A program made the position numbers and the translations under genes. The notes beneath the pieces were generated by a model. The model was not told the origin of the DNA. It saw only the letters and a program-made list of their open reading frames with translations, and did not search any database. Of a DNA stretch of 64,000 bases, positions 3,075 through 62,227 are shown in pieces. Source of the DNA: Candidatus Wolfebacteria bacterium (GTDB lineage Bacteria > Patescibacteriota > Minisyncoccia > UBA6257 > UBA9933). Numbering within the stretch: position 1 is the first letter of the stretch; each line of letters starts with the position of its first letter. Location of the stretch: positions 168,959 to 232,958 of the forward strand of contig JANLIR010000002.1 of NCBI GenBank assembly GCA_024654025.1, written 5' to 3'.

Positions 3075-4358
3075 ATGTATAATAATCGCCTAAAAATAGT
3101 TTTGTTCGGAGCCGGAGTTATTGCACTTATTTTAGTTGTTCTAAGTGTTTTTTGCGTAATTCCGATAACAAAAAATTGTTCAAAAACTTCCGTGTCCGGA
3201 AAATTAATTTTTTGGGGAGTTGACGATGTTTCCGCTTATCAAACCGTTATAGATAATTACAGCAAGTTTTATAATAGAAAAGTTCAAATTCAATACCAGC
3301 AAATCCCCGAAGCGGATTTTGAAAATACTTTTGTTCGGGCAGTGGCTAAAAATCAAGGGCCCGATATTTTAATGTTTCATAACTCCTGGCTTATAAAACA
3401 GGGCGATCTTTTAGCTCCGGCCACTGACGCGCAAATTTCTTTAGCAAATATTCGCCAGCTTTTCCCGCAGGTTGTTGAAAAAGATTTTACTTACCAAAGT
3501 AAGGTTTACGCGCTTCCTTTATATCTCGACACTCTCGCGCTTTTTTACAATAAAGATATTTTTAATGCTAACGCCGTTGTTTTTCCGCCGGCAAATTGGA
3601 GTGATTTTACGAATTTAGCAACGAGGCTTACGAAAAAACAAGCTAACGGCCAGATTTTACAATCCGGCGCGGCTATCGGCAGCTCTGATAAAAATATCGT
3701 AAACGCAACTGATGTTTTAAATACGTTAATGCTTCAATACGGTTCTTTAATAGTTGATCCATCTTTTATGCGAACTGATTTTAGCGGTAAAGCAACCAGC
3801 GCTTTTGATTTTTACACCGGCTTTGCCAAGCCAGCTAGCAGTAATTATGTTTGGAACCAAAATTTAGGAAACTCGTTTGATTTATTCAGCCAGGGGCAGG
3901 CGGCGATGATTTTCGGTTATGCTAACCAGATTTCATATCTCAAACAAAAAAATCCGCTTTTGAATTTCGAGGTGGCGTCTATGCCGCAGGCCGATCCTTC
4001 AAATCCTAAAAATTACGCCGCTTATTGGGGCTTGGCAGTTTCTTCTAAAAGCGCGAATTCCGAACTTGCCTGGAGTTTTATAAAATACCTGACAACTGAC
4101 CCGCAAAACTCTCTTACTTATCTTCAAGCGACAAAACGGCCGCCGGCTTTGAAAATTTTAATCAAACAATATCAGAATGATCCGGATTTAAATGTTTTTG
4201 CAAACCAAGCGCTTGCGGCAACTTCATGGTATCAGCCCGACTCTGACCAAACCAGCCAGATTTTTTCAAGCGCGGTCGAATCGGTTTTAAGCGGCCAGCT
4301 TACTTCTGGGCGCGCGCTGGAAAAAGCCGCTTCTCAAATAAATAATTTATTTAAATAA
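3075..4358 (+). CDS. extracellular solute-binding protein (ABC family 1-like), N-terminal membrane anchor
   Basis: N-terminal TM helix, then LIFWGV...GPDILMFHNSW...ALPLYLDTLALFYNKD, typical of sugar-type SBPs. No permease gene nearby. Confidence 0.6.
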   Translation: MYNNRLKIVLFGAGVIALILVVLSVFCVIPITKNCSKTSVSGKLIFWGVDDVSAYQTVIDNYSKFYNRKVQIQYQQIPEADFENTFVRAVAKNQGPDILMFHNSWLIKQGDLLAPATDAQISLANIRQLFPQVVEKDFTYQSKVYALPLYLDTLALFYNKDIFNANAVVFPPANWSDFTNLATRLTKKQANGQILQSGAAIGSSDKNIVNATDVLNTLMLQYGSLIVDPSFMRTDFSGKATSAFDFYTGFAKPASSNYVWNQNLGNSFDLFSQGQAAMIFGYANQISYLKQKNPLLNFEVASMPQADPSNPKNYAAYWGLAVSSKSANSELAWSFIKYLTTDPQNSLTYLQATKRPPALKILIKQYQNDPDLNVFANQALAATSWYQPDSDQTSQIFSSAVESVLSGQLTSGRALEKAASQINNLFK

Positions 4359-5728: not shown

Positions 5729-6679
5729 TCAATAAATCTTCAGGAGACCCGGTTGTCCCATGGCCACTTTTATTGGGCCGAGCGGGTTTCCGTTAGTTTT
5801 CCATTTCCAAAAGCCAACCGGTCCCGCTTTCCGTGTTTCGCCGGAGCCCTCGCCAATTATGATCTGGTAAGAGTTTTGGGCGTCAATCGTTATGATTGTC
5901 CCAATGGGCGGGGTCCATGAAGTCACCGCAACGCTCCCGGCCGGAATAAAAACACCATTTCGTCCTTCTTCCGGCGTGACCACGATTTCTTTGAGAACCG
6001 GCGCACTGGGCGCAACCCCCGCTTCCGCGTTAGATGGTTTCATGGTGAGAGTCGTCACGATGCCATTGTCGATTCCCTTTGCTGAGTTCCTTGCGAGCTC
6101 GGCTGTGCGGGGAAGAAACAATGAAATGACGATTGTTATGAAAATCATCGATGCGACAAACGTTATTGCCCTTCCGTTGAAGATGGAAGTGCCTCCGAAA
6201 AGCCGAGTTCCGATAAAGATGATAAAGGCCAAGAGCAGCAGCAACGGGATCAGCTCGGGTCGTTTATCTATCGGAATGATGATAAGCATCAGGGCGAATG
6301 ATAACTCGGCGAATAATACGTGCAGCGTCAGTCGAACATACCGCTCTCCAAACCCCACTGCTGTTCTTCGCCAGATCGCGTCGATTATTAACGCAATCGG
6401 CGCGGCCAGTAAAGAAAGCAAGATCGTGAAGAACGCCCAAACAAGTCCCGCAACCGAAATCCACATCGAGAATCCGAAAATTCCCAGAAGCAGGATTGGT
6501 ATGGGCAGAAGCATCATTACGATTGCGAGCCGCGAAAGCCCGACCCGATATACTTCAAAATCGGTTCTGTTATCGCCCCCAACAAGGGCAATGACCTCGG
6601 CGGCGTCCGCCGCGCCGGTGATGATTGTGTCGAGAATGAGCCGCAGCGTTAAGAGTATTTCACGAAGTGTTTCACGCAT
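5729..6679 (-). CDS. hypothetical polytopic membrane protein with soluble C-terminal domain (GC-rich cassette)
   Basis: Start moved to ATG at 6679, preceded by GGAGGctcctcATG. It overlaps the upstream stop by 8 nt. Several TM helices. Confidence 0.6.
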   Translation of the reverse strand: MRETLREILLTLRLILDTIITGAADAAEVIALVGGDNRTDFEVYRVGLSRLAIVMMLLPIPILLLGIFGFSMWISVAGLVWAFFTILLSLLAAPIALIIDAIWRRTAVGFGERYVRLTLHVLFAELSFALMLIIIPIDKRPELIPLLLLLAFIIFIGTRLFGGTSIFNGRAITFVASMIFITIVISLFLPRTAELARNSAKGIDNGIVTTLTMKPSNAEAGVAPSAPVLKEIVVTPEEGRNGVFIPAGSVAVTSWTPPIGTIITIDAQNSYQIIIGEGSGETRKAGPVGFWKWKTNGNPLGPIKVAMGQPGLLKIY

Positions 6680-7373
6680 GAGGAGCCTCCTTTCGATATT
6701 TGGCAGTCTTCCGGCCGCGTGCTGTGCGGCGGTTATTGAGCCATTCAGCCCAACGGTCGTTGAGGGGTTGAAGTTCTGAACCAATTACTCCAAATACTTC
6801 GTTGAGACGGATCCCAAACATTCTTAGCCACTGCATGACGATGTCGTGGTTGAGAAACTCGATTGCGCTGTCGAATTCTTGCGGAGGAAGTTCGCCGAGC
6901 CAGACGAAGAAGTTGATGGTATCTTCATCGGTCGTTTCCTTCCCTTCCTCGGATTCTTTAAGTATTAAAACCTTTCCGAGACAATCCACAAGAAGATTCT
7001 CTTCGCCAGGCCGGTAATTTCCTTCGTCAGAATAAAGCCGGGGCCGACAAAACTGCCGATCTTCCTGCCTCTTTCTGATGGTTTTTGCCGCGACTTTCTT
7101 CTTTTCATCTTCGGAAGATTCCATCTTCTGTAAAAAAACGAGAAGCTTGGCGCGGTAATGGTCACTCATCTTCGCCTGCACTTTTTTAGCCGTTTCTACG
7201 GCTGCCTTGCTCCCGACTTCGCGAATGACCTCGGCGGCAGCGGTTCTTGACCCCATCTTCATAAGCCCCCAGGCTTTTCTGAGGAGTTCAAAAACAGCAA
7301 TACCCCCTGCCGTTATCCCGAGTTCCTTTCCGACTTCGCCAGCGCTGAAATCAGCTTTCTTTTCCTCTGCCAT
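6672..7373 (-). CDS. hypothetical protein (GC-rich cassette, first gene)
   Basis: ORF preceded by aaAGGAGGacgccgaccATG. No family recognised. Confidence 0.55.
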   Translation of the reverse strand: MAEEKKADFSAGEVGKELGITAGGIAVFELLRKAWGLMKMGSRTAAAEVIREVGSKAAVETAKKVQAKMSDHYRAKLLVFLQKMESSEDEKKKVAAKTIRKRQEDRQFCRPRLYSDEGNYRPGEENLLVDCLGKVLILKESEEGKETTDEDTINFFVWLGELPPQEFDSAIEFLNHDIVMQWLRMFGIRLNEVFGVIGSELQPLNDRWAEWLNNRRTARGRKTAKYRKEAPHA

Positions 7374-13790: not shown

Positions 13791-15152
13791 ATGAATTTAG
13801 AAAAAATTTTAAATTTAGGAAGGAAAGTTATTCCAAAGCCTGTTTTTGAATTTTTTCAGCCAGCCTACCATTGGATGCTGGCTTTTTTAGGCGCTTTTCT
13901 TTACGGCTCTCCGTCAAAAAATATGATAATTATCGGAGTTACGGGCACAAAAGGCAAAACTACCACTTGCGATCTTATTGCTCAAATTTTAAATTCGTTC
14001 GGCTATAAAACCGCGCTTGTTACCACTGCCTTGGTGCGCATAGGAGACGAGGAGTGGAAAAACGAGCATAAACAAACAATGCTTGGCCGGTTTAAGCTCC
14101 AGAAATTTTTAAGCCAAGCCGACGAGTTAAAATGCCGGTACGCTGTTGTGGAGACATCTTCAGAAGGTATTTTGCAATACAGGCACCGGTTTATAGATTA
14201 TGATGTGGCGGTTTTTACCAATCTATTCCCTGAACACATAGAACGCCACGGCGGTTTTGAAAATTATAGAAACGCTAAAGTAAAATTATTCGAAAAACTG
14301 GCAAAAAAAGACAACGGAATAGGAATTTATAATTTAGATGATTCGGATGTTAATTATTTTTTGGAGCCCGGAATAAAAACAAAAATAGGATATACAATAA
14401 ATAACCAACGACCAACAACTATTAATCAAGAACTCATGGAATCTTTGCAGAAAATTATCGAAGTTAAAAATATTGAACAGGGACTAGACGGATCGAAATT
14501 TTCAATTAATGGCGAGAGATTCAAAACTCCCCTGATAGGAGAATTTAATGTGTACAATGCGGTAGCCGCTATTACTGTTGCGATATCCCAAGGTGTTCCG
14601 CTTAATAAAATAAAACCTATTATTAGCAGAGCAAAACAAACTCCCGGCAGATTGGAAAAAGTAGAAAACGAAAAAGGATTCACGGTCATTATTGATTACG
14701 CGCATGAACCGTTTAGTTTGGAATCGGTTTACAAAGCAGCCGCAAGTTACAAAGCGAAACCTAAAAGTTCTATGTTGTGCCTTTTGGGAGCCCAAGGCGG
14801 CGGACGAGACAGATGGAAGAGGCCGAAAATGGGAAGTATCGCCGCTCAATATTGCGATAAGATAATTTTAACAAATGAAGATCCTTACGACGAAAATCCA
14901 AATCAAATTTTAGACGATATCGAGGAAGGCGTTCGAGCTGGATTTCGCAACAATCCAAAAAAATTCGCAACCGTAAATAAAATTATAGATAGAAAAGAAG
15001 CAATCCAAAAAGCTGTTTCTCTTGCGAAAAAAGGCGATGTTGTGGTTTTAACCGGTAAAGGCGGAGAAACATTTATGTGTATTGAGAATAATAAAAAAAA
15101 TCTCTGGGATGAAAAAACGGTTGTTGAAGAGGTATTGAATAGTTTCTCATAA
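13791..15152 (+). CDS. Mur ligase family protein (MurE-like)
   Basis: GVTGTKGKTTT P-loop, DYAHEPFSLESV, TNEDPYDENP. Confidence 0.75.
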   Translation: MNLEKILNLGRKVIPKPVFEFFQPAYHWMLAFLGAFLYGSPSKNMIIIGVTGTKGKTTTCDLIAQILNSFGYKTALVTTALVRIGDEEWKNEHKQTMLGRFKLQKFLSQADELKCRYAVVETSSEGILQYRHRFIDYDVAVFTNLFPEHIERHGGFENYRNAKVKLFEKLAKKDNGIGIYNLDDSDVNYFLEPGIKTKIGYTINNQRPTTINQELMESLQKIIEVKNIEQGLDGSKFSINGERFKTPLIGEFNVYNAVAAITVAISQGVPLNKIKPIISRAKQTPGRLEKVENEKGFTVIIDYAHEPFSLESVYKAAASYKAKPKSSMLCLLGAQGGGRDRWKRPKMGSIAAQYCDKIILTNEDPYDENPNQILDDIEEGVRAGFRNNPKKFATVNKIIDRKEAIQKAVSLAKKGDVVVLTGKGGETFMCIENNKKNLWDEKTVVEEVLNSFS

Positions 15153-15217
15153 TGGTGTAGCTTTTTAAAAGTTTATTTGTCAGAAAAAAATCATATTACA
15201 TAGAGGAGGGGGTAGCG

Positions 15218-15718
15218 ATGGATAAGCAGATCTACTATGGGTTGCTGTCTCTTATTCCTATTTCGGGCATTGTTCTAGTTACTGTCACTGCAATTTTATT
15301 GATTGTAAAGTTGAGGGCGGTTAAGGGGCAAACGATAATAGTGCTTTTTATAATTGGAGTTGCTCTATGCGAGCTTCGGCCGCAAGAATTAAAAAACGTC
15401 ACGATTTTTTCTGAGTTGCCAGACAATCGTTATCAAATTGCCGGTCAAGTGCCAACAGTTAATTATGCGATAATTAGCTACAAGGGAAGAAATGGAATCG
15501 ATGTGGTAATGGTTAAGGATGTTCCGGGCGATTTAAAATTAGGCACGATTTTTGTCATTAAAAATGGGCAGGTGGAAATAGAGTGGCAACCGGAAGACCA
15601 ACAAGAGGAACAACAAAAAAAAGAACAAAAAGAAGAGACAGAGGAATATAGATTCGGTCCGTATGATTTTCGTATCAGGGCGGCCTCCAAAGATAAGGAG
15701 GCTGCTTTTTTTGCGTAA
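15218..15718 (+). CDS. hypothetical membrane-anchored protein (GC-richer cassette)
   Basis: GAGGAGGGGGtagcgATG RBS, two N-terminal TM helices, acidic/Gln-rich tail. Confidence 0.5.
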   Translation: MDKQIYYGLLSLIPISGIVLVTVTAILLIVKLRAVKGQTIIVLFIIGVALCELRPQELKNVTIFSELPDNRYQIAGQVPTVNYAIISYKGRNGIDVVMVKDVPGDLKLGTIFVIKNGQVEIEWQPEDQQEEQQKKEQKEETEEYRFGPYDFRIRAASKDKEAAFFA

Positions 15719-15723
15719 AAAAA

Positions 15724-15742
15724 GGTCCCTTATGCAGGGACC
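15724..15742. terminator. hairpin between convergent cassette genes
   Basis: GGTCCC ttatgca GGGACC. Confidence 0.55.
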
Positions 15743-16017
15743 ACCTCAACTCCTTTCTTTTCCGGGGGGTTTCTCCGAAAATATTCTTTGGCCTTGTCGC
15801 AGGCCGCGGCAAAAGCGGCCGGCGCGACAACGTAGTTGTGAGTGTCACGCGTGTGCGCGCCCGGCTTAAATCTCTCATTAAGACCGCCGGCTGTTACGAT
15901 ACGACGACCGAAGCGTGTCTTGTGACGGAAAGGTATAACAACCCCCTCTGTCCAGACCTGAACGATGTTTGGGTTGCCAAGCTTCTTTCCTGTTTCGAAA
16001 ACCCAGACATTCAGCAA
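15730..16017 (-). CDS. hypothetical protein (GC-rich cassette), TTG start
   Basis: gGAAGGAGGcgcaacTTG. 95 aa. No family recognised. Confidence 0.45.
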   Translation of the reverse strand: MLNVWVFETGKKLGNPNIVQVWTEGVVIPFRHKTRFGRRIVTAGGLNERFKPGAHTRDTHNYVVAPAAFAAACDKAKEYFRRNPPEKKGVEVVPA

Positions 16018-16031
16018 GTTGCGCCTCCTTC

Positions 16032-16214
16032 CTAATAGTGAAAGGTCAGGATCGACTTCATGAAAGCGGGATACCGAGAAGTCAGGATCACCATCATGAA
16101 GGCGAACACGGTCATGATCAGCATCCCTCTGAATATCGGCTGGAAAAACCTGCGAGTGAAGTGGTCATTCCGCTTCCTTTTGCTGTTGTGCTTCTGGTTC
16201 GTATAAATAAACAT
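16032..16214 (-). CDS. hypothetical small membrane protein (GC-rich cassette)
   Basis: GGGGGGTGAaaATG at 16214, one TM helix (GMLIMTVFAFMMVILT), 60 aa. Confidence 0.4.
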   Translation of the reverse strand: MFIYTNQKHNSKRKRNDHFTRRFFQPIFRGMLIMTVFAFMMVILTSRYPAFMKSILTFHY

Positions 16215-16303
16215 TTTCACCCCCCACAAAGATTTTTTACGATCTGGCTAAATAGTAGCATATTTTTTAAAGTTTGTAAAGAGGGGTAAAATAGCCCGTC
16301 TAT

Positions 16304-16687
16304 TCAGAGATTTATATTCTTGTAATGAGAAATGATGGGGTTATTAGTGTTGTTTAGGGTTATAGCAATTAAATCAATTCGCCACCCCATTTCCTTATTT
16401 ATTAAGCCTTGATTAGCGCCTGAATATAAAGAGGCGGTTCTGGCTACTTTTTTAAGCTTAGAAGCAGTTAATTGATCCTCGGGTTTTAGGTTGAAATTGG
16501 TAGATTGTTGGAGGGTTTTGACTTCTATAAAAACAAGAGTTTTGTCGTGGTCTTTAGCTATGATATCTATCTCTCCCCACGGCTTCCTATAATTCCGCTC
16601 AATAATCCGGTATCTATTGTTGATTAAGCACTCGCAAGCCAAATCTTCGCCTAATTGCCCAGTTTTTTGTTTATCTGTTGAATCCAT
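16304..16687 (-). CDS. YraN-family (UPF0102) endonuclease-like protein
   Basis: GQLGEDLACECL...YRKPWGEIDIIAKD...LVFIEVKT. Confidence 0.8.
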   Translation of the reverse strand: MDSTDKQKTGQLGEDLACECLINNRYRIIERNYRKPWGEIDIIAKDHDKTLVFIEVKTLQQSTNFNLKPEDQLTASKLKKVARTASLYSGANQGLINKEMGWRIDLIAITLNNTNNPIISHYKNINL

Positions 16688-16767: not shown

Positions 16768-17199
16768 ATGCAAACAAAAAAAATTACAGCAGAATATATT
16801 AGGGGCTTTATTGAGGGCGTGGGAACTTTTACTTTCACAACCTCGTCACGGGGTTTCAATAAAAAGGTTAAAATACCAACTTTTCAATTAAGAATGAATA
16901 TTCGAGATAAACGGTTAATTGAATTGATTAAAGGACATCTCGGACTTAAAAATAGGGTTTATATGTATCATTATCCGGGAACTGATGGCGCAAAACGAGG
17001 GCCACAAGCGATGTTAATAGTCCGAGAAATAGGTAATCTGAAAAATATAATCATCCCTTTCTTTTACGATAAGCTGGTTGGGTATAAAGCAGCCCAATTT
17101 AATAAGTGGCTTGAAAGAATAGGTAAAGACTCGGAAGTGCCAGAGGGATTTAAGATTCTATACCGTCTTCATAAATCCGGTTGGTTTTCAAAGAAATAG
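16768..17199 (+). CDS. free-standing LAGLIDADG homing endonuclease (single-motif type)
   Basis: AEYIRGFIEGVGTFTF is LAGLIDADG-like. 143 aa. Confidence 0.7.
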   Translation: MQTKKITAEYIRGFIEGVGTFTFTTSSRGFNKKVKIPTFQLRMNIRDKRLIELIKGHLGLKNRVYMYHYPGTDGAKRGPQAMLIVREIGNLKNIIIPFFYDKLVGYKAAQFNKWLERIGKDSEVPEGFKILYRLHKSGWFSKK

Positions 17200-17483: not shown

Positions 17484-18137
17484 CTAATAGGACGCGAAAA
17501 TACCCTTTGCCCACCCCCGGATTTTTAAAGATAGCCCAACATTACAGATGTAGATTTCAAAAGTTCCATAAGGAAGGCCCTCTTTTTTGGATTTTGTGGC
17601 TCTTTTTACTGAGAGTTTGAAAAACTGCTTTAAAGGGATGCCGGAAATTTCCGACCAGTATTTTTCTGTTCCCCGATGATCAAGGTGGGGATAGATATAA
17701 ATATGCCCCCGGAATTTCTGTTCCGGAACCTCACAAACATCCCTAAAAAAGGCCATCATTAACCTAACTATATTCGGGTCGCTGTTTGAGAACCGGACAA
17801 GGCCTTTTTGGGTTTTCCCACACCCTGCCCAATACAAAACCGAGCCAATTAGCCAAAGCTCACTTCTAGTTATTTTCTTTACCTGCTTTTGCGCTTGGTC
17901 GATAAGGTTTTCTCGTGTAGCTGTTTCCCGAGCCAGTCTGGTTGCGCGTCTTTTTTCCACTACCGAAAGCTTTACGGCGCGCTTTGATAGCGTTTTCTCC
18001 TGGTCTTTAGTTAGCGCGATGTTGCGGACCCATAAGCTCGCGCTACTTTTTGAAACGTTTAAGTTTTTCGCGATCTCGTTCAGAGAGTAACCATAAGCTC
18101 GGAGTTCTCGCGCTTTTTGTTTTTCAGCCTGCTTCAT
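17484..18137 (-). CDS. HTH-domain protein with degenerate LAGLIDADG-like C-terminal domain
   Basis: N-terminal YSLNEIAKNLNVSKSSASLWVRNI (HTH). C-terminal LWLIGSVLYWAGCGKTQKGLVRFSNSDPNIVRLMMAFF resembles homing-endonuclease cores. Confidence 0.5.
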   Translation of the reverse strand: MKQAEKQKARELRAYGYSLNEIAKNLNVSKSSASLWVRNIALTKDQEKTLSKRAVKLSVVEKRRATRLARETATRENLIDQAQKQVKKITRSELWLIGSVLYWAGCGKTQKGLVRFSNSDPNIVRLMMAFFRDVCEVPEQKFRGHIYIYPHLDHRGTEKYWSEISGIPLKQFFKLSVKRATKSKKEGLPYGTFEIYICNVGLSLKIRGWAKGIFASY

Positions 18138-19184: not shown

Positions 19185-19206
19185 CTCCTTATTATAGCAA
19201 AAAAAG

Positions 19207-19278
19207 TGCGAGTGGCAGGGATCGAACCTGCGACGGCCGTCTTATAAGGGCGGTGCTCTACCACTGAGCTACACTCGC
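19207..19278 (-). tRNA. tRNA-Ile(UAU)
   Basis: GCGAGTG TA GCTC AGTGGTA GAGC A CCGCC CTTATAA GACGG CCGTC GCAGG TTCGATC CCTGC CACTCGC A. One C-A mismatch in the anticodon stem. Confidence 0.75.
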
Positions 19279-42874: not shown

Positions 42875-42890
42875 TTTTTGTTTTTTATAG

Positions 42891-43206
42891 TGGAAGCGGA
42901 GGGATTGAACCCTCGTCCGCAAATTTTTTTAAAAAAAATCTACAAGCTTAGTTCGTGAGAACAATTTTGCTCCTTATTCTCGTTTCGGATATCGGAGCGT
43001 TTCTCCGAAACAATCCCAATTTATTACACCAGCTAATCCCTTATTGGGAGTCAGAGGCTGATGGCTTAAGCTTTAACCGATTGGTTTAGGCGAAAGCGAA
43101 TGCCGGTTTATTGGCAATTATTTGTTGGTTCGTTGATTAGCGAGGTGACGCGCCATCCTCGGCCTGCATTTTTTTAAGAACAATCTGCGTCGAAACTTAC
43201 ACTCCC
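42891..43206 (-). ncRNA. ssrA: tmRNA (ssrA), predicted tag ANKPAFAFA
   Basis: 5' GGGAGTGTAAGTTTCGACGCAG pairs with 3' ...GGACGAGGGTTCAATCCCTCCGCTTCCA, giving acceptor GGGAGTG/CGCTTCC with G3-U70. PK1-like GCAGGCCGAGG..CCTCGC. Tag ORF GCC AAT AAA CCG GCA TTC GCT TTC GCC TAA. Confidence 0.8.
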
Positions 43207-54871: not shown

Positions 54872-54949
54872 AAATTTACAAAAGGTGCGGGGTGAACCGT
54901 ATGCGGTTGCCAGTTTCACTACCTGCCTTTTTGTTGTTTGCTGGTGGCG

Positions 54950-62092: not shown

Positions 62093-62227
62093 ACCCCGCA
62101 CCTTTTATGGATATATTTTTTTCGAAGCGGCAAAATGGGGTAAAATTTAATCACTTAAAAATAAATATTTGGAAATTTGAATGCTATAATGCTAAGTAAG
62201 CTTCGCAATCCATAAAAGGTGCGGGGT
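62093..62227. repeat. 20-bp perfect inverted repeat pair bracketing the recA upstream region
   Basis: ACCCCGCACCTTTTATGGAT (62093-62112) against ATCCATAAAAGGTGCGGGGT (62208-62227). Confidence 0.85.
62182..62190 (+). promoter_or_regulatory. candidate extended -10 (TGCTATAAT) for recA
   Basis: TGcTATAAT lies 45 nt upstream of the recA ATG, inside the inverted-repeat element. Confidence 0.35.

What the first reader, a model, noticed from the sequence alone, without database searches (positions are those of the whole stretch)
15218..16214. Convergent pair of GC-rich orphan cassettes between the Mur ligase and yraN
The plus-strand 166-aa membrane-anchored protein has RBS GAGGAGGGGG. The minus-strand pair is a 60-aa single-TM peptide (GGGGGGTGAaaATG) followed 15 nt later by a 95-aa protein (GGAAGGAGGcgcaacTTG). 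The two transcription units converge on a shared hairpin GGTCCC ttatgca GGGACC.

The region is visibly GC-rich and has no recognisable homology. A small membrane peptide paired with a small soluble protein is reminiscent of toxin/immunity or phage-derived modules. That is speculation.
Basis: partly seen in the sequence, partly recalled or inferred. Interest (0 to 1): 0.5.

Follow-up and report, generated by a model that had tools for sequence, protein, structure and literature searches.

The report
Recombination-shuffled small two-gene operon in Wolfebacteria
The three small ORFs are real genes, and the GC-rich pair is a self-contained operon for a tiny membrane peptide plus a small basic protein whose two halves are swapped between related Wolfebacteria strains; its function is unknown.

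Summary
The ORFs, ribosome-binding sites and hairpin are at the stated coordinates. Two details are wrong. Only the minus-strand pair is GC-rich, and each converging unit has its own terminator rather than a shared hairpin.

Comparative data show both minus-strand ORFs are coding (dN/dS 0.1-0.2). The plus-strand ORFs at 15838-16289 are antisense artefacts.

The pair is an autonomous operon. It runs from a conserved sigma-70-type promoter through gene A (a 60-aa basic single-pass membrane peptide) and a 14-nt spacer with an SD. Gene B follows (95 aa, basic, soluble, TTG start), and its stop codon lies in the terminator loop.

The family occurs only in a narrow Candidatus Wolfebacteria clade, always between yraN and a Mur ligase. 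No known family, fold, phage or plasmid matches.

The locus is a recombination mosaic. Three near-identical strains (flanks about 99.5%) carry three different A/B allele combinations (cassette dS 0.46, flanks 0.012). Other lineages combine two or three A types with three unrelated B types.

Elevated GC3 fits import or biased gene conversion.

My best functional guess is a toxin-antitoxin-like or conflict module (about 0.3). A hok-like 5'-3' mRNA fold-back is predicted in some alleles only.

The 166-aa gene is a separate, variably present membrane protein.

The parts
15203..15212 (+). Shine-Dalgarno GAGGAGGGGG of the 166-aa gene
   Evidence: Read directly. It lies 5 nt upstream of the ATG at 15218.
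15218..15718 (+). 166-aa membrane-anchored protein gene: two N-terminal hydrophobic segments, a beta-rich domain of about 70 aa, and an acidic/lysine-rich variable tail. GC content is ordinary. It is annotated in GenBank as hypothetical protein MCR4275312.1 (Candidatus Wolfebacteria).
   Evidence: ORF. Six relatives are 60-85% identical and conserved over residues 1-125 only. The DUF3006 match is weak and below threshold (E 0.002, 18.6 bits against a cut-off of 32.3; 4 of 7 family members match). The gene is absent from L001/L009, L003 and L008.
15680..15712 (+). Intrinsic terminator of the 166-aa gene: 9-bp stem GCGGCCTCC/GGAGGCTGC, 8-nt loop, T7. It lies inside the 3' end of the ORF. The TAA stop (15716-15718) comes after the T-tract.
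   Evidence: sequence. The hairpin is conserved as DNA in relatives, while the encoded C-termini differ.
15717..15742 (-). Intrinsic terminator of the minus-strand operon: hairpin GGTCCC-tgcataa-GGGACC (15742->15724) followed by U7 (15723->15717). The stop codon of gene B sits in the loop.
   Evidence: An equivalent hairpin plus T-run is present in L001, L003, L008, L010 and L011.
15730..16017 (-). Gene B (type B1): 95-aa soluble basic protein (pI 10.2) with a TTG start. The model shows four beta strands, a strongly conserved loop R-x-K-x-G-A-x-x-R-D-x-H-N-Y, and a C-terminal helix.
   Evidence: dN/dS is 0.10-0.22 in this frame; the antisense frames have stops in relatives. Relatives are listed. 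The AlphaFold models have pLDDT 67. There is no family, PDB or viral fold match.
15764..15786 (-). 3' partner (GAAUAUUUUCGGAGAAACCCCCC, within the end of gene B) of a predicted long-range helix that would cover the SD and AUG of gene A.
   Evidence: The pairing is predicted with probability 0.91 in the window and 0.81 in L003, and is absent in L010, L005, L006, L007 and L015.
16018..16031 (-). 14-nt intercistronic spacer. Together with the G of the gene A stop codon at 16032 it carries the SD GGAAGGAGG of gene B. It is one of three conserved 'joints' where alleles switch.
   Evidence: Homology to L005 runs through this SD and the TTG start and then breaks. The allele switch between L016 and the window falls here.
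16032..16214 (-). Gene A (type A1): 60-aa strongly basic (pI 11.4) single-pass membrane peptide. It has a basic N-terminus of about 25 aa, a transmembrane segment at about residues 24-48, and a conserved tail RYPAFMKSILTFHY. GC3 is 0.75.
   Evidence: The frame is open in all relatives, with in-frame indels of 21 nt in L003 and of 12 codons in L011. dN/dS is 0.10-0.47. There is no family match. Neither this exact protein nor the 95-aa one is among about 15 billion predicted proteins, which suggests that neither gene was called in the source record.
16209..16225 (-). SD (GGGGGG) and AUG region of gene A. This is the 5' partner of the predicted fold-back helix.
16252..16280 (-). Sigma-70-type promoter of the small operon: TTTACA, 17 nt, TACTAT, with TG upstream of the -10 hexamer.
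   Evidence: Most of the block CTTTACAAACTTTAAAAAATATGCTA is identical in the window, L001 and L003/L004. A related promoter is retained in L005 and L006, and TTTACA-N17-TATAAT precedes the pair in L007. It is unique within the window.
15822..16262 (.). Recombinant (hyper-divergent) tract relative to the near-identical strain L010.
   Evidence: 72 of the 84 differences over 3 kb fall here. The two genes are 86% identical here, against 99.0-99.6% in the flanks. Informative sites fall in blocks (runs test p < 1e-4), and a 104-nt stretch is identical to the distant lineage L001.

Best explanation
The region holds two independent, convergent transcription units in a variable zone of a Candidatus Wolfebacteria chromosome, between a Mur ligase gene and yraN.

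Unit 1 (plus strand) is an ordinary-composition gene for a 166-aa membrane-anchored protein with its own terminator. It is present in some related lineages and absent in others.

Unit 2 (minus strand, the GC-rich part) is an autonomous bicistronic operon. It consists of a conserved sigma-70-type promoter and gene A, a 44-63-aa very basic single-pass membrane peptide. A spacer of about 10-20 nt with a strong SD follows. Then comes gene B, a 66-97-aa basic cytosolic protein that usually starts at TTG or GTG, and an intrinsic terminator.

Shown: both genes are under purifying selection. The operon occupies the same chromosomal slot in every related lineage sampled that spans the slot. Its two cistrons are exchanged independently between lineages by homologous recombination at three conserved joints: the promoter, the intercistronic SD and the terminator. 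As a result, old divergent alleles, and even unrelated B genes, sit on nearly identical backgrounds.

Inferred:
- The high GC3 is a consequence of this traffic, either import from GC-richer alleles or GC-biased gene conversion.
- Functionally, the operon most likely acts as a toxin-antitoxin-like or conflict module (addiction, exclusion or strain discrimination). In this reading A is the membrane-acting effector and B an interchangeable cytosolic partner.
- In A1-B1 alleles, translation of A may be restrained by pairing of its SD/AUG with the 3' end of the mRNA, as in hok mRNA.

My confidence is about 0.85 for the anatomy and the recombination history, about 0.3 for the conflict-module function, and about 0.3 for the fold-back.
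For: Coding:
- dN/dS is 0.10-0.22 for B1 and 0.10-0.47 for A1 in the minus frames.
- Differences concentrate at third codon positions (7/4/21 and 24/19/46 by position).
- Indels are in frame.
- Antisense frames carry stops in relatives.

Operon signals:
- The promoter is conserved and unique in the window.
- The terminator has a U-tract on the minus strand only.
- The same layout recurs in 11 loci, with a spacer of about 10-20 nt and a non-ATG start for B in 9 of 11.

Narrow family: an exhaustive HMM search of 1.84 billion representative proteins found only three proteins at E <= 0.001, and one of those is a repeat protein I dismissed. Contig scans found a handful of syntenic loci.

Recombination:
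- Window versus L010: dS is 0.011-0.013 in the flanks and 0.46 in the cassette.
- Window versus L001: the flanks are 76-83% identical and the cassette 89-92%, with a 104-nt identical run.
- L016/L017 carry the L010-like A allele with the window-like B allele. L010 and L016 come from replicate samples labelled with the same site code (Hain H41).

Combinatorial shuffling: the combinations A1B1, A1B2, A2B1, A2B2, A2B3 and A3B1' are all seen.

Composition:
- GC3 is 0.75 for A1 and 0.57 for B1, against 0.395 +/- 0.053 in the window.
- A positive link between recombination and GC content in bacteria is reported in PMC4450053.

Fold-back:
- The mRNA fold has z = -3.3.
- The SD region's best duplex partner is the 3' end of B, ranking 1st of 70-87 windows in 6 of 7 A1 loci. 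The z-score is about -3 in the window and in L003, which use different sequences.
- 84% of cells are paired, against 41-61% for slid controls. One pair varies AU/GU/GC, and two of the six sequences break it.
- The hok 5'-3' interaction that blocks translation is described in PMC9841398.
Against: Against a function as a cognate toxin/antitoxin pair:
- Any A type occurs with any B type.
- Both products are basic (pI 9.5-11.8).
- Every lineage sampled that spans the slot carries a module there, whereas toxin-antitoxin modules are usually patchy.
- No match to Pfam, NCBIfam, PHROGs or PADLOC.
- No antisense promoter was detected inside the cassette.

Against the fold-back:
- It is absent or improbable in L010, L005, L006, L007 and L015.
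- Covariation rests on six related sequences. Shuffles reach the observed covariation score in 12 of 500 trials.
- C-runs pairing with G-rich SD sequences are easy to obtain by chance.

Other weaknesses:
- All sequences are metagenome assemblies, so some mosaics could be assembly chimeras of co-occurring strains. That would still imply polymorphism at this site.
- The B1 fold model is of only moderate confidence (pLDDT 67), and its most conserved loop is the least confident part.
- There are no expression data.
Confidence: 0.5

Rival explanations
1. The operon encodes ordinary lineage-specific accessory proteins, for example a small membrane regulator plus a small nucleic-acid-binding protein. 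It merely lies in a recombination hot spot. Allele shuffling and high GC3 would then be neutral by-products (biased gene conversion), not signs of conflict.
For: - A module is present at the same slot in every related lineage that spans it.
- Purifying selection is similar to that on the flanking genes: dN/dS is 0.1-0.2 for the pair, against 0.09-0.26 for yraN and the Mur ligase.
- A second divergent patch lies nearby in the 217-aa gene, which suggests a recombination-prone neighbourhood.
- A general link between recombination and GC content is reported in PMC4450053.
Against: - A housekeeping function is hard to reconcile with replacement of B by unrelated proteins (B2, and the B3 zinc ribbon) and of A1 by A2 or A3.
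- It is also hard to reconcile with the restriction of the family to a handful of genomes among 1.84 billion representative proteins.
- Three mosaic states occur among strains with about 99.5% identical flanks, which suggests the variants are maintained.
Confidence: 0.3
2. The cassette is a mobile-element or phage remnant: a moron-like unit with its own promoter and terminator, brought in from a GC-richer donor.
For: - It has an autonomous promoter and terminator, and GC3 far above the genome.
- MITE-like palindromic insertions lie immediately upstream of the promoter in L005, L008 and L015.
- Homing-endonuclease-like genes lie next to yraN.
Against: - No relative was found in 50,697 phage genomes, IMG/VR contigs, 72,556 plasmids or viral structure models.
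- No integrase, flanking repeats or paralogues lie nearby.
- The chromosomal position is fixed inside a conserved core-gene neighbourhood: PNPase, S15, S20, RuvA, Mur ligase, yraN.
Confidence: 0.1
3. The mosaic pattern is an assembly artefact: chimeric contigs built from co-occurring strains, with no recombination in vivo.
For: - All loci are metagenome assemblies.
- L010, L015 and L016 come from samples labelled with the same site code (Hain H41).
Against: - The same mosaic is recovered independently in different samples and assemblers (L016 from ENA, L017 from Logan; L001, L002 and L009).
- The window shares a 104-nt identical stretch with a lineage whose flanks are only 76-83% identical.
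- Even if contigs were chimeric, several divergent alleles must coexist at this one site.
Confidence: 0.05
4. The GC-rich patch is not protein-coding on the minus strand. It would be a structured RNA, or the plus-strand ORFs at 15838-16289 would be the real genes.
For: - The minus-strand transcript folds better than shuffled sequences (z = -3.3).
- Plus-strand ORFs of 65 and 106 aa are open in the window.
- One gene caller fused the antisense frame into a 263-aa product (P0009).
Against: - No Rfam family matches, even at E <= 10.
- The plus-strand frames carry 1-3 stops in relatives and have dN/dS of 1.1-1.8.
- The minus frames show third-position-biased substitution and in-frame indels.
Confidence: 0.02
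5. Targeted hypermutation, for example by a diversity-generating retroelement, produces the local divergence.
For: Differences between near-identical strains are extremely localised.
Against: - The differences are mostly synonymous (dN/dS 0.16-0.20, dS 0.46) and extend over two genes plus the promoter.
- The variant segments are shared with other lineages in blocks.
- No second copy that could serve as a template exists within the window.
Confidence: 0.01

Closest known systems
hok/sok-type (type I) toxin-antitoxin loci
   Same: - A peptide of at most about 60 aa with a single transmembrane segment.
- A compact autonomous unit with a structured mRNA.
- In several alleles a predicted 5'-3' long-range pairing covers the SD and AUG. 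This resembles the tac/fbi interaction that keeps full-length hok mRNA untranslatable (PMC9841398).
   Different: - No antisense RNA promoter was found.
- A second protein-coding cistron follows on the same mRNA.
- There is no sequence similarity to Hok or any Pfam family of small toxins.
- The fold-back is not present in all alleles.
- Toxicity is untested.
GhoT/GhoS (type V) toxin-antitoxin system
   Same: From my own knowledge, GhoT is a membrane peptide of about 57 aa and GhoS a soluble protein of about 98 aa, which act as toxin and antitoxin. Papers on the system were found. The sizes match A (60 aa) and B (95 aa).
   Different: - The gene order is reversed; from my own knowledge, ghoS precedes ghoT.
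- Neither the Pfam scans nor the PDB sequence and fold searches returned a GhoS or GhoT match.
- B is replaced by unrelated proteins in some lineages.
- RNase activity is untested.
Type II toxin-antitoxin operons with 'mix and match' partner shuffling
   Same: - Two small genes a few nucleotides apart, under one promoter.
- Atypical composition and exchange between lineages.
- Independent assortment of upstream and downstream gene families. Shuffling of toxin and antitoxin families is an established property of type II systems (own knowledge).
   Different: - The upstream gene is a membrane peptide, not a DNA-binding acidic antitoxin.
- Both products are basic.
- No TA or defence family matches.
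- The locus is fixed in position and present in every lineage sampled that spans the slot.
Polymorphic chromosomal loci kept diverse by recombination and frequency-dependent selection, such as pherotype and bacteriocin/immunity loci like comCD, agr and blp (own knowledge)
   Same: - Highly divergent alleles on near-identical flanks.
- Mosaic structure.
- Alleles shared across lineage boundaries.
- Coexistence of alleles in samples labelled with the same site code.
   Different: - No signal or leader peptide, no transporter, kinase or processing gene nearby.
- B has no export signal.
- The selection regime was not measured.
DUF3006 (Pfam PF11213), for the 166-aa protein only
   Same: There is weak similarity over residues 82-141, at E <= 0.1 in 4 of 7 family members.
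   Different: The score of 18.6 bits is below the gathering threshold of 32.3. The protein also has two N-terminal hydrophobic segments and a low-complexity tail.

Membership tests
Type I toxin-antitoxin (hok/sok-like) | Small hydrophobic toxin peptide (usually under 60 aa) with a transmembrane segment | tested here: met
   A1 is 60 aa. Its best 19-residue hydropathy window scores 2.16, at residues 27-45.
Type I toxin-antitoxin (hok/sok-like) | Antisense or divergent small RNA antitoxin with its own promoter, overlapping the toxin mRNA | tested here: not met
   The consensus promoter scan found no plus-strand promoter-like site between 15750 and 16290. No Rfam sRNA matches. The scan is crude, so this is weak negative evidence.
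Type I toxin-antitoxin (hok/sok-like) | Toxin mRNA held translationally inert by structure that sequesters the SD (5'-3' interaction) | tested here: inconclusive
   The pairing is predicted with probability 0.91 in the window, 0.81 in L003 and 0.43-0.47 in three further alleles. It is about 0 in five loci. Covariation is weak.
Type I toxin-antitoxin (hok/sok-like) | Toxicity of the peptide on expression | not testable with these tools
   This needs expression in a surrogate host.
Type V toxin-antitoxin (GhoT/GhoS) | Sequence or fold relationship to GhoT and GhoS | tested here: not met
Type V toxin-antitoxin (GhoT/GhoS) | Antitoxin is an RNase that cleaves the toxin mRNA | not testable with these tools
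   This is a biochemical assay.
Type II toxin-antitoxin | Membership of a known toxin or antitoxin domain family | tested here: not met
   No hits in Pfam, NCBIfam, PHROGs or PADLOC for A1, B1 or B2. PHROGs and NCBIfam were run on A1 and B1 only.
Type II toxin-antitoxin | Two small adjacent co-transcribed genes | tested here: met
   There is a 14-nt spacer, one promoter and one terminator, and the layout is conserved in 11 loci.
Diversity-generating retroelement target | Variation concentrated at non-synonymous sites, with a template repeat and a reverse transcriptase nearby | tested here: not met
   The differences are mostly synonymous (dN/dS 0.16-0.20). No second copy exists in the window. 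The window was not scanned specifically for a reverse transcriptase.
Phage or plasmid gene (moron) | Relatives encoded on phages, plasmids or viral contigs | tested here: not met
   No match for B1 in phage genomes, plasmids, IMG/VR or BFVD. B2 and B3 give only E >= 0.1 against phage genomes, and B2 has no IMG/VR match.
DUF3006 (PF11213), 166-aa protein | Score at or above Pfam's gathering threshold | tested here: not met
   The score is 18.6 bits against 32.3. 4 of 7 relatives match at E <= 0.1.
Known structured RNA (Rfam) | Match to a covariance model at the gathering score | tested here: not met
   There are no hits in 15100-16400 apart from terminator-like fragments at E > 0.5.

The most novel reading that the evidence does not exclude
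The A/B operon is a new kind of strain-discrimination or addiction locus of episymbiotic Wolfebacteria. A membrane-peptide effector would be gated by a hok-like 5'-3' mRNA fold-back but partnered with interchangeable protein cistrons instead of an antisense RNA. The locus would be organised as a fixed 'expression site' with three conserved recombination joints, and its alleles would be kept diverse by balancing selection within a single groundwater population.
Probability: 0.15. Interest if true: 0.75.

Novelty: new variant of a known kind. Interest (0 to 1): 0.45.

Why it matters
Candidate Phyla Radiation (Patescibacteria) genomes are small, and a large share of their genes have no known function. 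This locus has two features that make it approachable.

- It is unannotated in the source genome. Neither exact small protein is among about 15 billion predicted proteins.
- Its evolutionary behaviour is unusually easy to read. Three allele combinations sit on about 99.5% identical backgrounds, and six A/B combinations occur across lineages.

If the module mediates toxicity/immunity or strain discrimination, it would be one of the few such systems defined in this group. The existing groundwater time-series metagenomes could serve as a natural experiment on balancing selection.

The result also shows that a local GC excess in an AT-rich genome can mark a recombination hot spot rather than an RNA gene or a foreign island.

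Tried and rejected
1. Structured RNA. Rfam gave only terminator-like fragments, at gathering thresholds over the whole window and at E <= 10 over 15100-16400.
2. Plus-strand ORFs as the real genes. Rejected because of stops in relatives and dN/dS > 1.
3. Known protein families. Pfam, NCBIfam, PHROGs and PADLOC gave nothing for A1 or B1. B3 has a sub-threshold zinc ribbon, and the 166-aa protein a sub-threshold DUF3006 match.
4. Remote homology. The exhaustive profile search found only the same narrow family, one 88-aa distant relative (P0011) and a repeat protein that I dismissed.
5. Fold recognition.
   - Two AlphaFold runs gave pLDDT of about 67.
   - Foldseek against PDB found nothing at E < 0.8.
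   - BFVD gave nothing, and the afdb50 library was unavailable.
7. Phage or plasmid origin. No matches.
8. Paralogues or a template copy within the window. None.
9. Homing-endonuclease co-conversion from the adjacent LAGLIDADG gene. I rejected this because yraN, which lies between that gene and the cassette, is not converted: it is 99.5% identical to L010, while donor-like lineages are only 83% identical there.
10. DGR-type hypermutation. Rejected on the substitution pattern.
11. The fold-back as a universal feature. Rejected, because it is absent in five of eleven loci.
12. A literature search for a prior description of a hypervariable small-protein locus in Patescibacteria found nothing relevant.
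Full report
**What is in the sequence**

The window has about 40% GC. The 166-aa ORF is identical to GenBank MCR4275312.1, a hypothetical protein of a Candidatus Wolfebacteria MAG.

- the 166-aa ORF at 15218-15718 (+), preceded by GAGGAGGGGG;
- a 60-aa ORF at 16032-16214 (-);
- a 95-aa ORF at 15730-16017 (-) with a TTG start, 14 nt downstream of the 60-aa ORF and preceded by GGAAGGAGG;
- the hairpin GGTCCC..GGGACC at 15724-15742.

Three details need correcting.
- Only the minus-strand pair is GC-rich. GC is 53% and 46%, and GC3 is 0.57 and 0.75. Fifty-six long ORFs of the window average GC3 0.395 +/- 0.053, with a maximum of 0.587. The 166-aa gene is 40% GC.
- The two units do not share a hairpin. 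GGTCCC..GGGACC has its U-run only on the minus strand. The 166-aa gene has its own terminator at 15680-15712.
- yraN lies on the same strand as the small pair, directly upstream of it.

**Are the small ORFs genes?**

A word-indexed search, an exhaustive HMM search and contig scans recovered relatives of the 95-aa protein. They occur in a handful of syntenic Wolfebacteria loci (L001/2/9, L003/4, L008, L010, L011-13, L014, L016/17) and on one short unrelated contig (L007).

In the minus frame, dN/dS is 0.10-0.22 for the 95-aa gene and 0.10-0.47 for the 60-aa gene. Differences are concentrated at third codon positions. The 60-aa gene carries in-frame indels in L003 and L011.

The plus-strand ORFs at 15838-16035 and 15969-16289 are open in the window. 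They carry 1-3 stops in relatives and have dN/dS of 1.1-1.8. Rfam finds no RNA family here.

Neither exact small protein is among about 15 billion predicted proteins. This suggests that the two genes were not called in the source record.

**Anatomy of the minus-strand unit**

A promoter (TTTACA, 17 nt, TACTAT, with an upstream TG) lies at 16280-16252. Most of its core is identical in the window, L001 and L003/L004. A related promoter is retained in L005 and L006, and it is unique within the window.

The order is promoter, gene A, a 14-nt spacer with an SD, gene B, and a terminator whose loop contains B's stop codon.

- **Gene A** is very basic (pI 10.4-11.8). It has an N-terminus of about 25 residues rich in Lys and Arg, one transmembrane segment and a short tail.
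- **Gene B** is soluble and basic (pI 10.2). The AlphaFold models have pLDDT of about 67. They show four beta strands, a poorly modelled but highly conserved loop (R-x-K-x-G-A-x-x-R-D-x-H-N-Y) and a C-terminal helix.

No family, solved structure or viral model matches.

**The locus is a recombination mosaic**

Against L010, a near-identical strain, 72 of the 84 differences over 3 kb fall between about 15822 and 16262. The Mur ligase, the 166-aa gene and yraN are 99.0-99.6% identical, while the two small genes are 86% identical. dS is 0.011-0.013 in the flanks and 0.46 in the cassette, with dN/dS of 0.16-0.20.

Against L001, the flanks are only 76-83% identical but the cassette is 89-92% identical. 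It includes a 104-nt stretch of complete identity. Informative sites fall in blocks (runs test p < 1e-4).

A third pair of contigs, L016 and L017, has the same flanks. They carry the L010-like A allele joined to the window-like B allele, with the switch at the intercistronic SD. L010 and L016 come from replicate samples labelled with the same site code (Hain H41). The pattern indicates imported old alleles under purifying selection, not hypermutation.

**Combinatorial partners**

| Locus | Gene A | Gene B |
|---|---|---|
| Window, L010, L001, L008, L003, L011, L016 | A1 (48-60 aa) | B1 (94-97 aa) |
| L005 | A1 (61 aa from the conserved ATG; listed as 63 from an upstream GTG) | B2 (68 aa, unrelated to B1) |
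| L015 | A2 (47 aa) | B2 (74 aa) |
| L014 | A2 (44 aa) | B1 (94 aa) |
| L006 | A2 (45 aa) | B3 (66 aa, sub-threshold zinc ribbon) |
| L007 | A3 (94 aa, at least one hydrophobic segment plus a Cys4 motif) | B1-like (88 aa) |

In L005, homology to the window runs through the promoter, A1, the SD and even the TTG start of the second gene. It then breaks and resumes at the terminator. A2 shares only the architecture and 20-33% identity with A1.

Across the 11 loci examined the spacer is about 10-20 nt, and B starts with TTG or GTG in 9 of 11. The promoter, the SD spacer and the terminator therefore act as conserved joints for independent exchange of the two cistrons.

**Composition**

The excess GC sits mainly at third codon positions. 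It is shared by all alleles, and by the other locally divergent gene nearby, the 217-aa ORF (GC3 0.47). Two explanations fit: repeated import from GC-richer alleles, or GC-biased gene conversion. A general positive link between recombination and GC content in bacteria has been reported (PMC4450053). I could not polarise the substitutions, so this remains inference.

**A possible hok-like fold-back**

The predicted transcript (16245->15716) folds better than shuffled sequences (z = -3.3). Its minimum-energy structure pairs the SD/AUG of gene A (16225-16209) with codons near the end of gene B (15786-15764).
- The 3' end of B is the best duplex partner of the SD region in 6 of 7 A1 loci, ranking first of 70-87 windows.
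- The z-score is about -3 in the window and in L003, which use different sequences.
- On a six-sequence alignment, 84% of cells are paired, against 41-61% for slid controls. One pair varies AU/GU/GC, and two of the six sequences break it.
- Partition-function support is 0.91 and 0.81 in the window and L003, 0.43-0.47 in three alleles, and about 0 in L010, L005, L006, L007 and L015.

The analogy is the 5'-3' interaction that keeps hok mRNA untranslatable (PMC9841398). I treat this as a lead, not a finding.

**The 166-aa gene**

It belongs to a small family conserved over residues 1-125. The protein has two hydrophobic segments followed by a beta-rich domain with a sub-threshold DUF3006 match. 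Its tail is variable because it is translated through the terminator hairpin. In the window, the stop codon (15716-15718) lies after the T-tract.

The gene is present in the window, L005, L006, L010, L011, L014, L015 and L016. It is absent in L003 and L008, and replaced by a 35-aa hydrophobic ORF in L001. It assorts independently of the A/B types and has ordinary composition, so I regard it as a separate gene.

**Interpretation**

Shown:
- three real genes in two convergent units;
- an autonomous A-B operon at a fixed slot;
- a narrow taxonomic range;
- purifying selection;
- mosaic recombination and combinatorial exchange.

Inferred:
- a conflict-type function (toxin-antitoxin-like, exclusion or strain discrimination), at about 0.3;
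- restraint of A translation by the fold-back, at about 0.3;
- GC excess as a consequence of recombination.

The main rival is an accessory small-protein operon in a neutral recombination hot spot, also at about 0.3. Phage origin, an RNA gene, plus-strand genes, a DGR and assembly artefact are each unlikely, for the reasons given under the rival explanations.

**Novelty**

The protein families are new, and the locus was apparently not annotated in the source genome. The kind of evolutionary behaviour is known from polymorphic conflict loci. I therefore rate it as a new variant of a known kind, of moderate interest.

Noticed in passing
window 17484-18137 (-), especially 17600-18000: The 217-aa ORF has an N-terminal HTH and a LAGLIDADG-like motif by eye; Pfam gave only weak HTH hits. 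It is a second hyper-divergent patch between near-identical strains, with about 48 differences to L016 in 400 nt, against about 0.5% in the flanks. Its GC is elevated (0.45; GC3 0.47).
   Followed up: partly
window 16768-17199 (+): A free-standing LAGLIDADG homing-endonuclease gene (Pfam E 8e-9) lies divergent from yraN. It is conserved in synteny in all related loci that extend that far. Co-conversion from it does not explain the cassette mosaic, because yraN between them is not converted.
   Followed up: partly
window 15680-15718 (+): The stop codon of the 166-aa gene (15716-15718) lies downstream of the T-tract of its own terminator (15706-15712). Transcripts terminated there would lack a stop codon and could be tmRNA substrates. 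Relatives have C-termini of very different length read through the same hairpin.
   Followed up: partly
window 62094-62226 and 54874-54892; L005 about 2500-2680; L015 about 1990-2110; L008 about 3610-3710: A MITE-like palindromic element has terminal inverted repeats CCCCGCACCTTTT(G/A)TGGAT. One full copy of about 133 nt lies in the window, and one arm lies next to tRNA-Leu. The same element is inserted immediately upstream of the cassette promoter's -35 hexamer in L005 and L015 (possible TTTAC target duplication). A different palindrome occupies that site in L008.
   Followed up: partly
L001 6357-6464 (-) (also L002, L009): In lineages that lack the 166-aa gene, the same position downstream of the Mur ligase holds a 35-aa hydrophobic, probably single-pass ORF (MGKIAIAGAAVFAVIFVISWWLSKNKRMTKKTEGR). 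It has a similar upstream region and its own terminator.
   Followed up: no
window 19206-19278 (-): ARAGORN calls a tRNA-Ile with anticodon TAT (UAU). From my own knowledge this is an uncommon way for bacteria to read AUA.
   Followed up: no
window 5729-7373: This is another GC-rich stretch (0.50-0.52; GC3 up to 0.59), with long overlapping ORFs on both strands (5729-6784 -, 5892-6779 +, 6672-7373 -). The coding strand was not resolved.
   Followed up: no
window 42888-43206 (-): A tmRNA gene (Rfam 126 bits) with tag peptide ANKPAFAFA.
   Followed up: no
L007 1-1150: This is the most distant relative of the 95-aa protein (88 aa, 46% identity). It sits on a short unrelated contig behind a TTTACA-N17-TATAAT promoter. 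Upstream of it is a 94-aa membrane protein with a C-terminal CxxC..CxC motif, 14 nt away. The peptide-plus-B1 pairing therefore extends beyond the yraN slot.
   Followed up: partly
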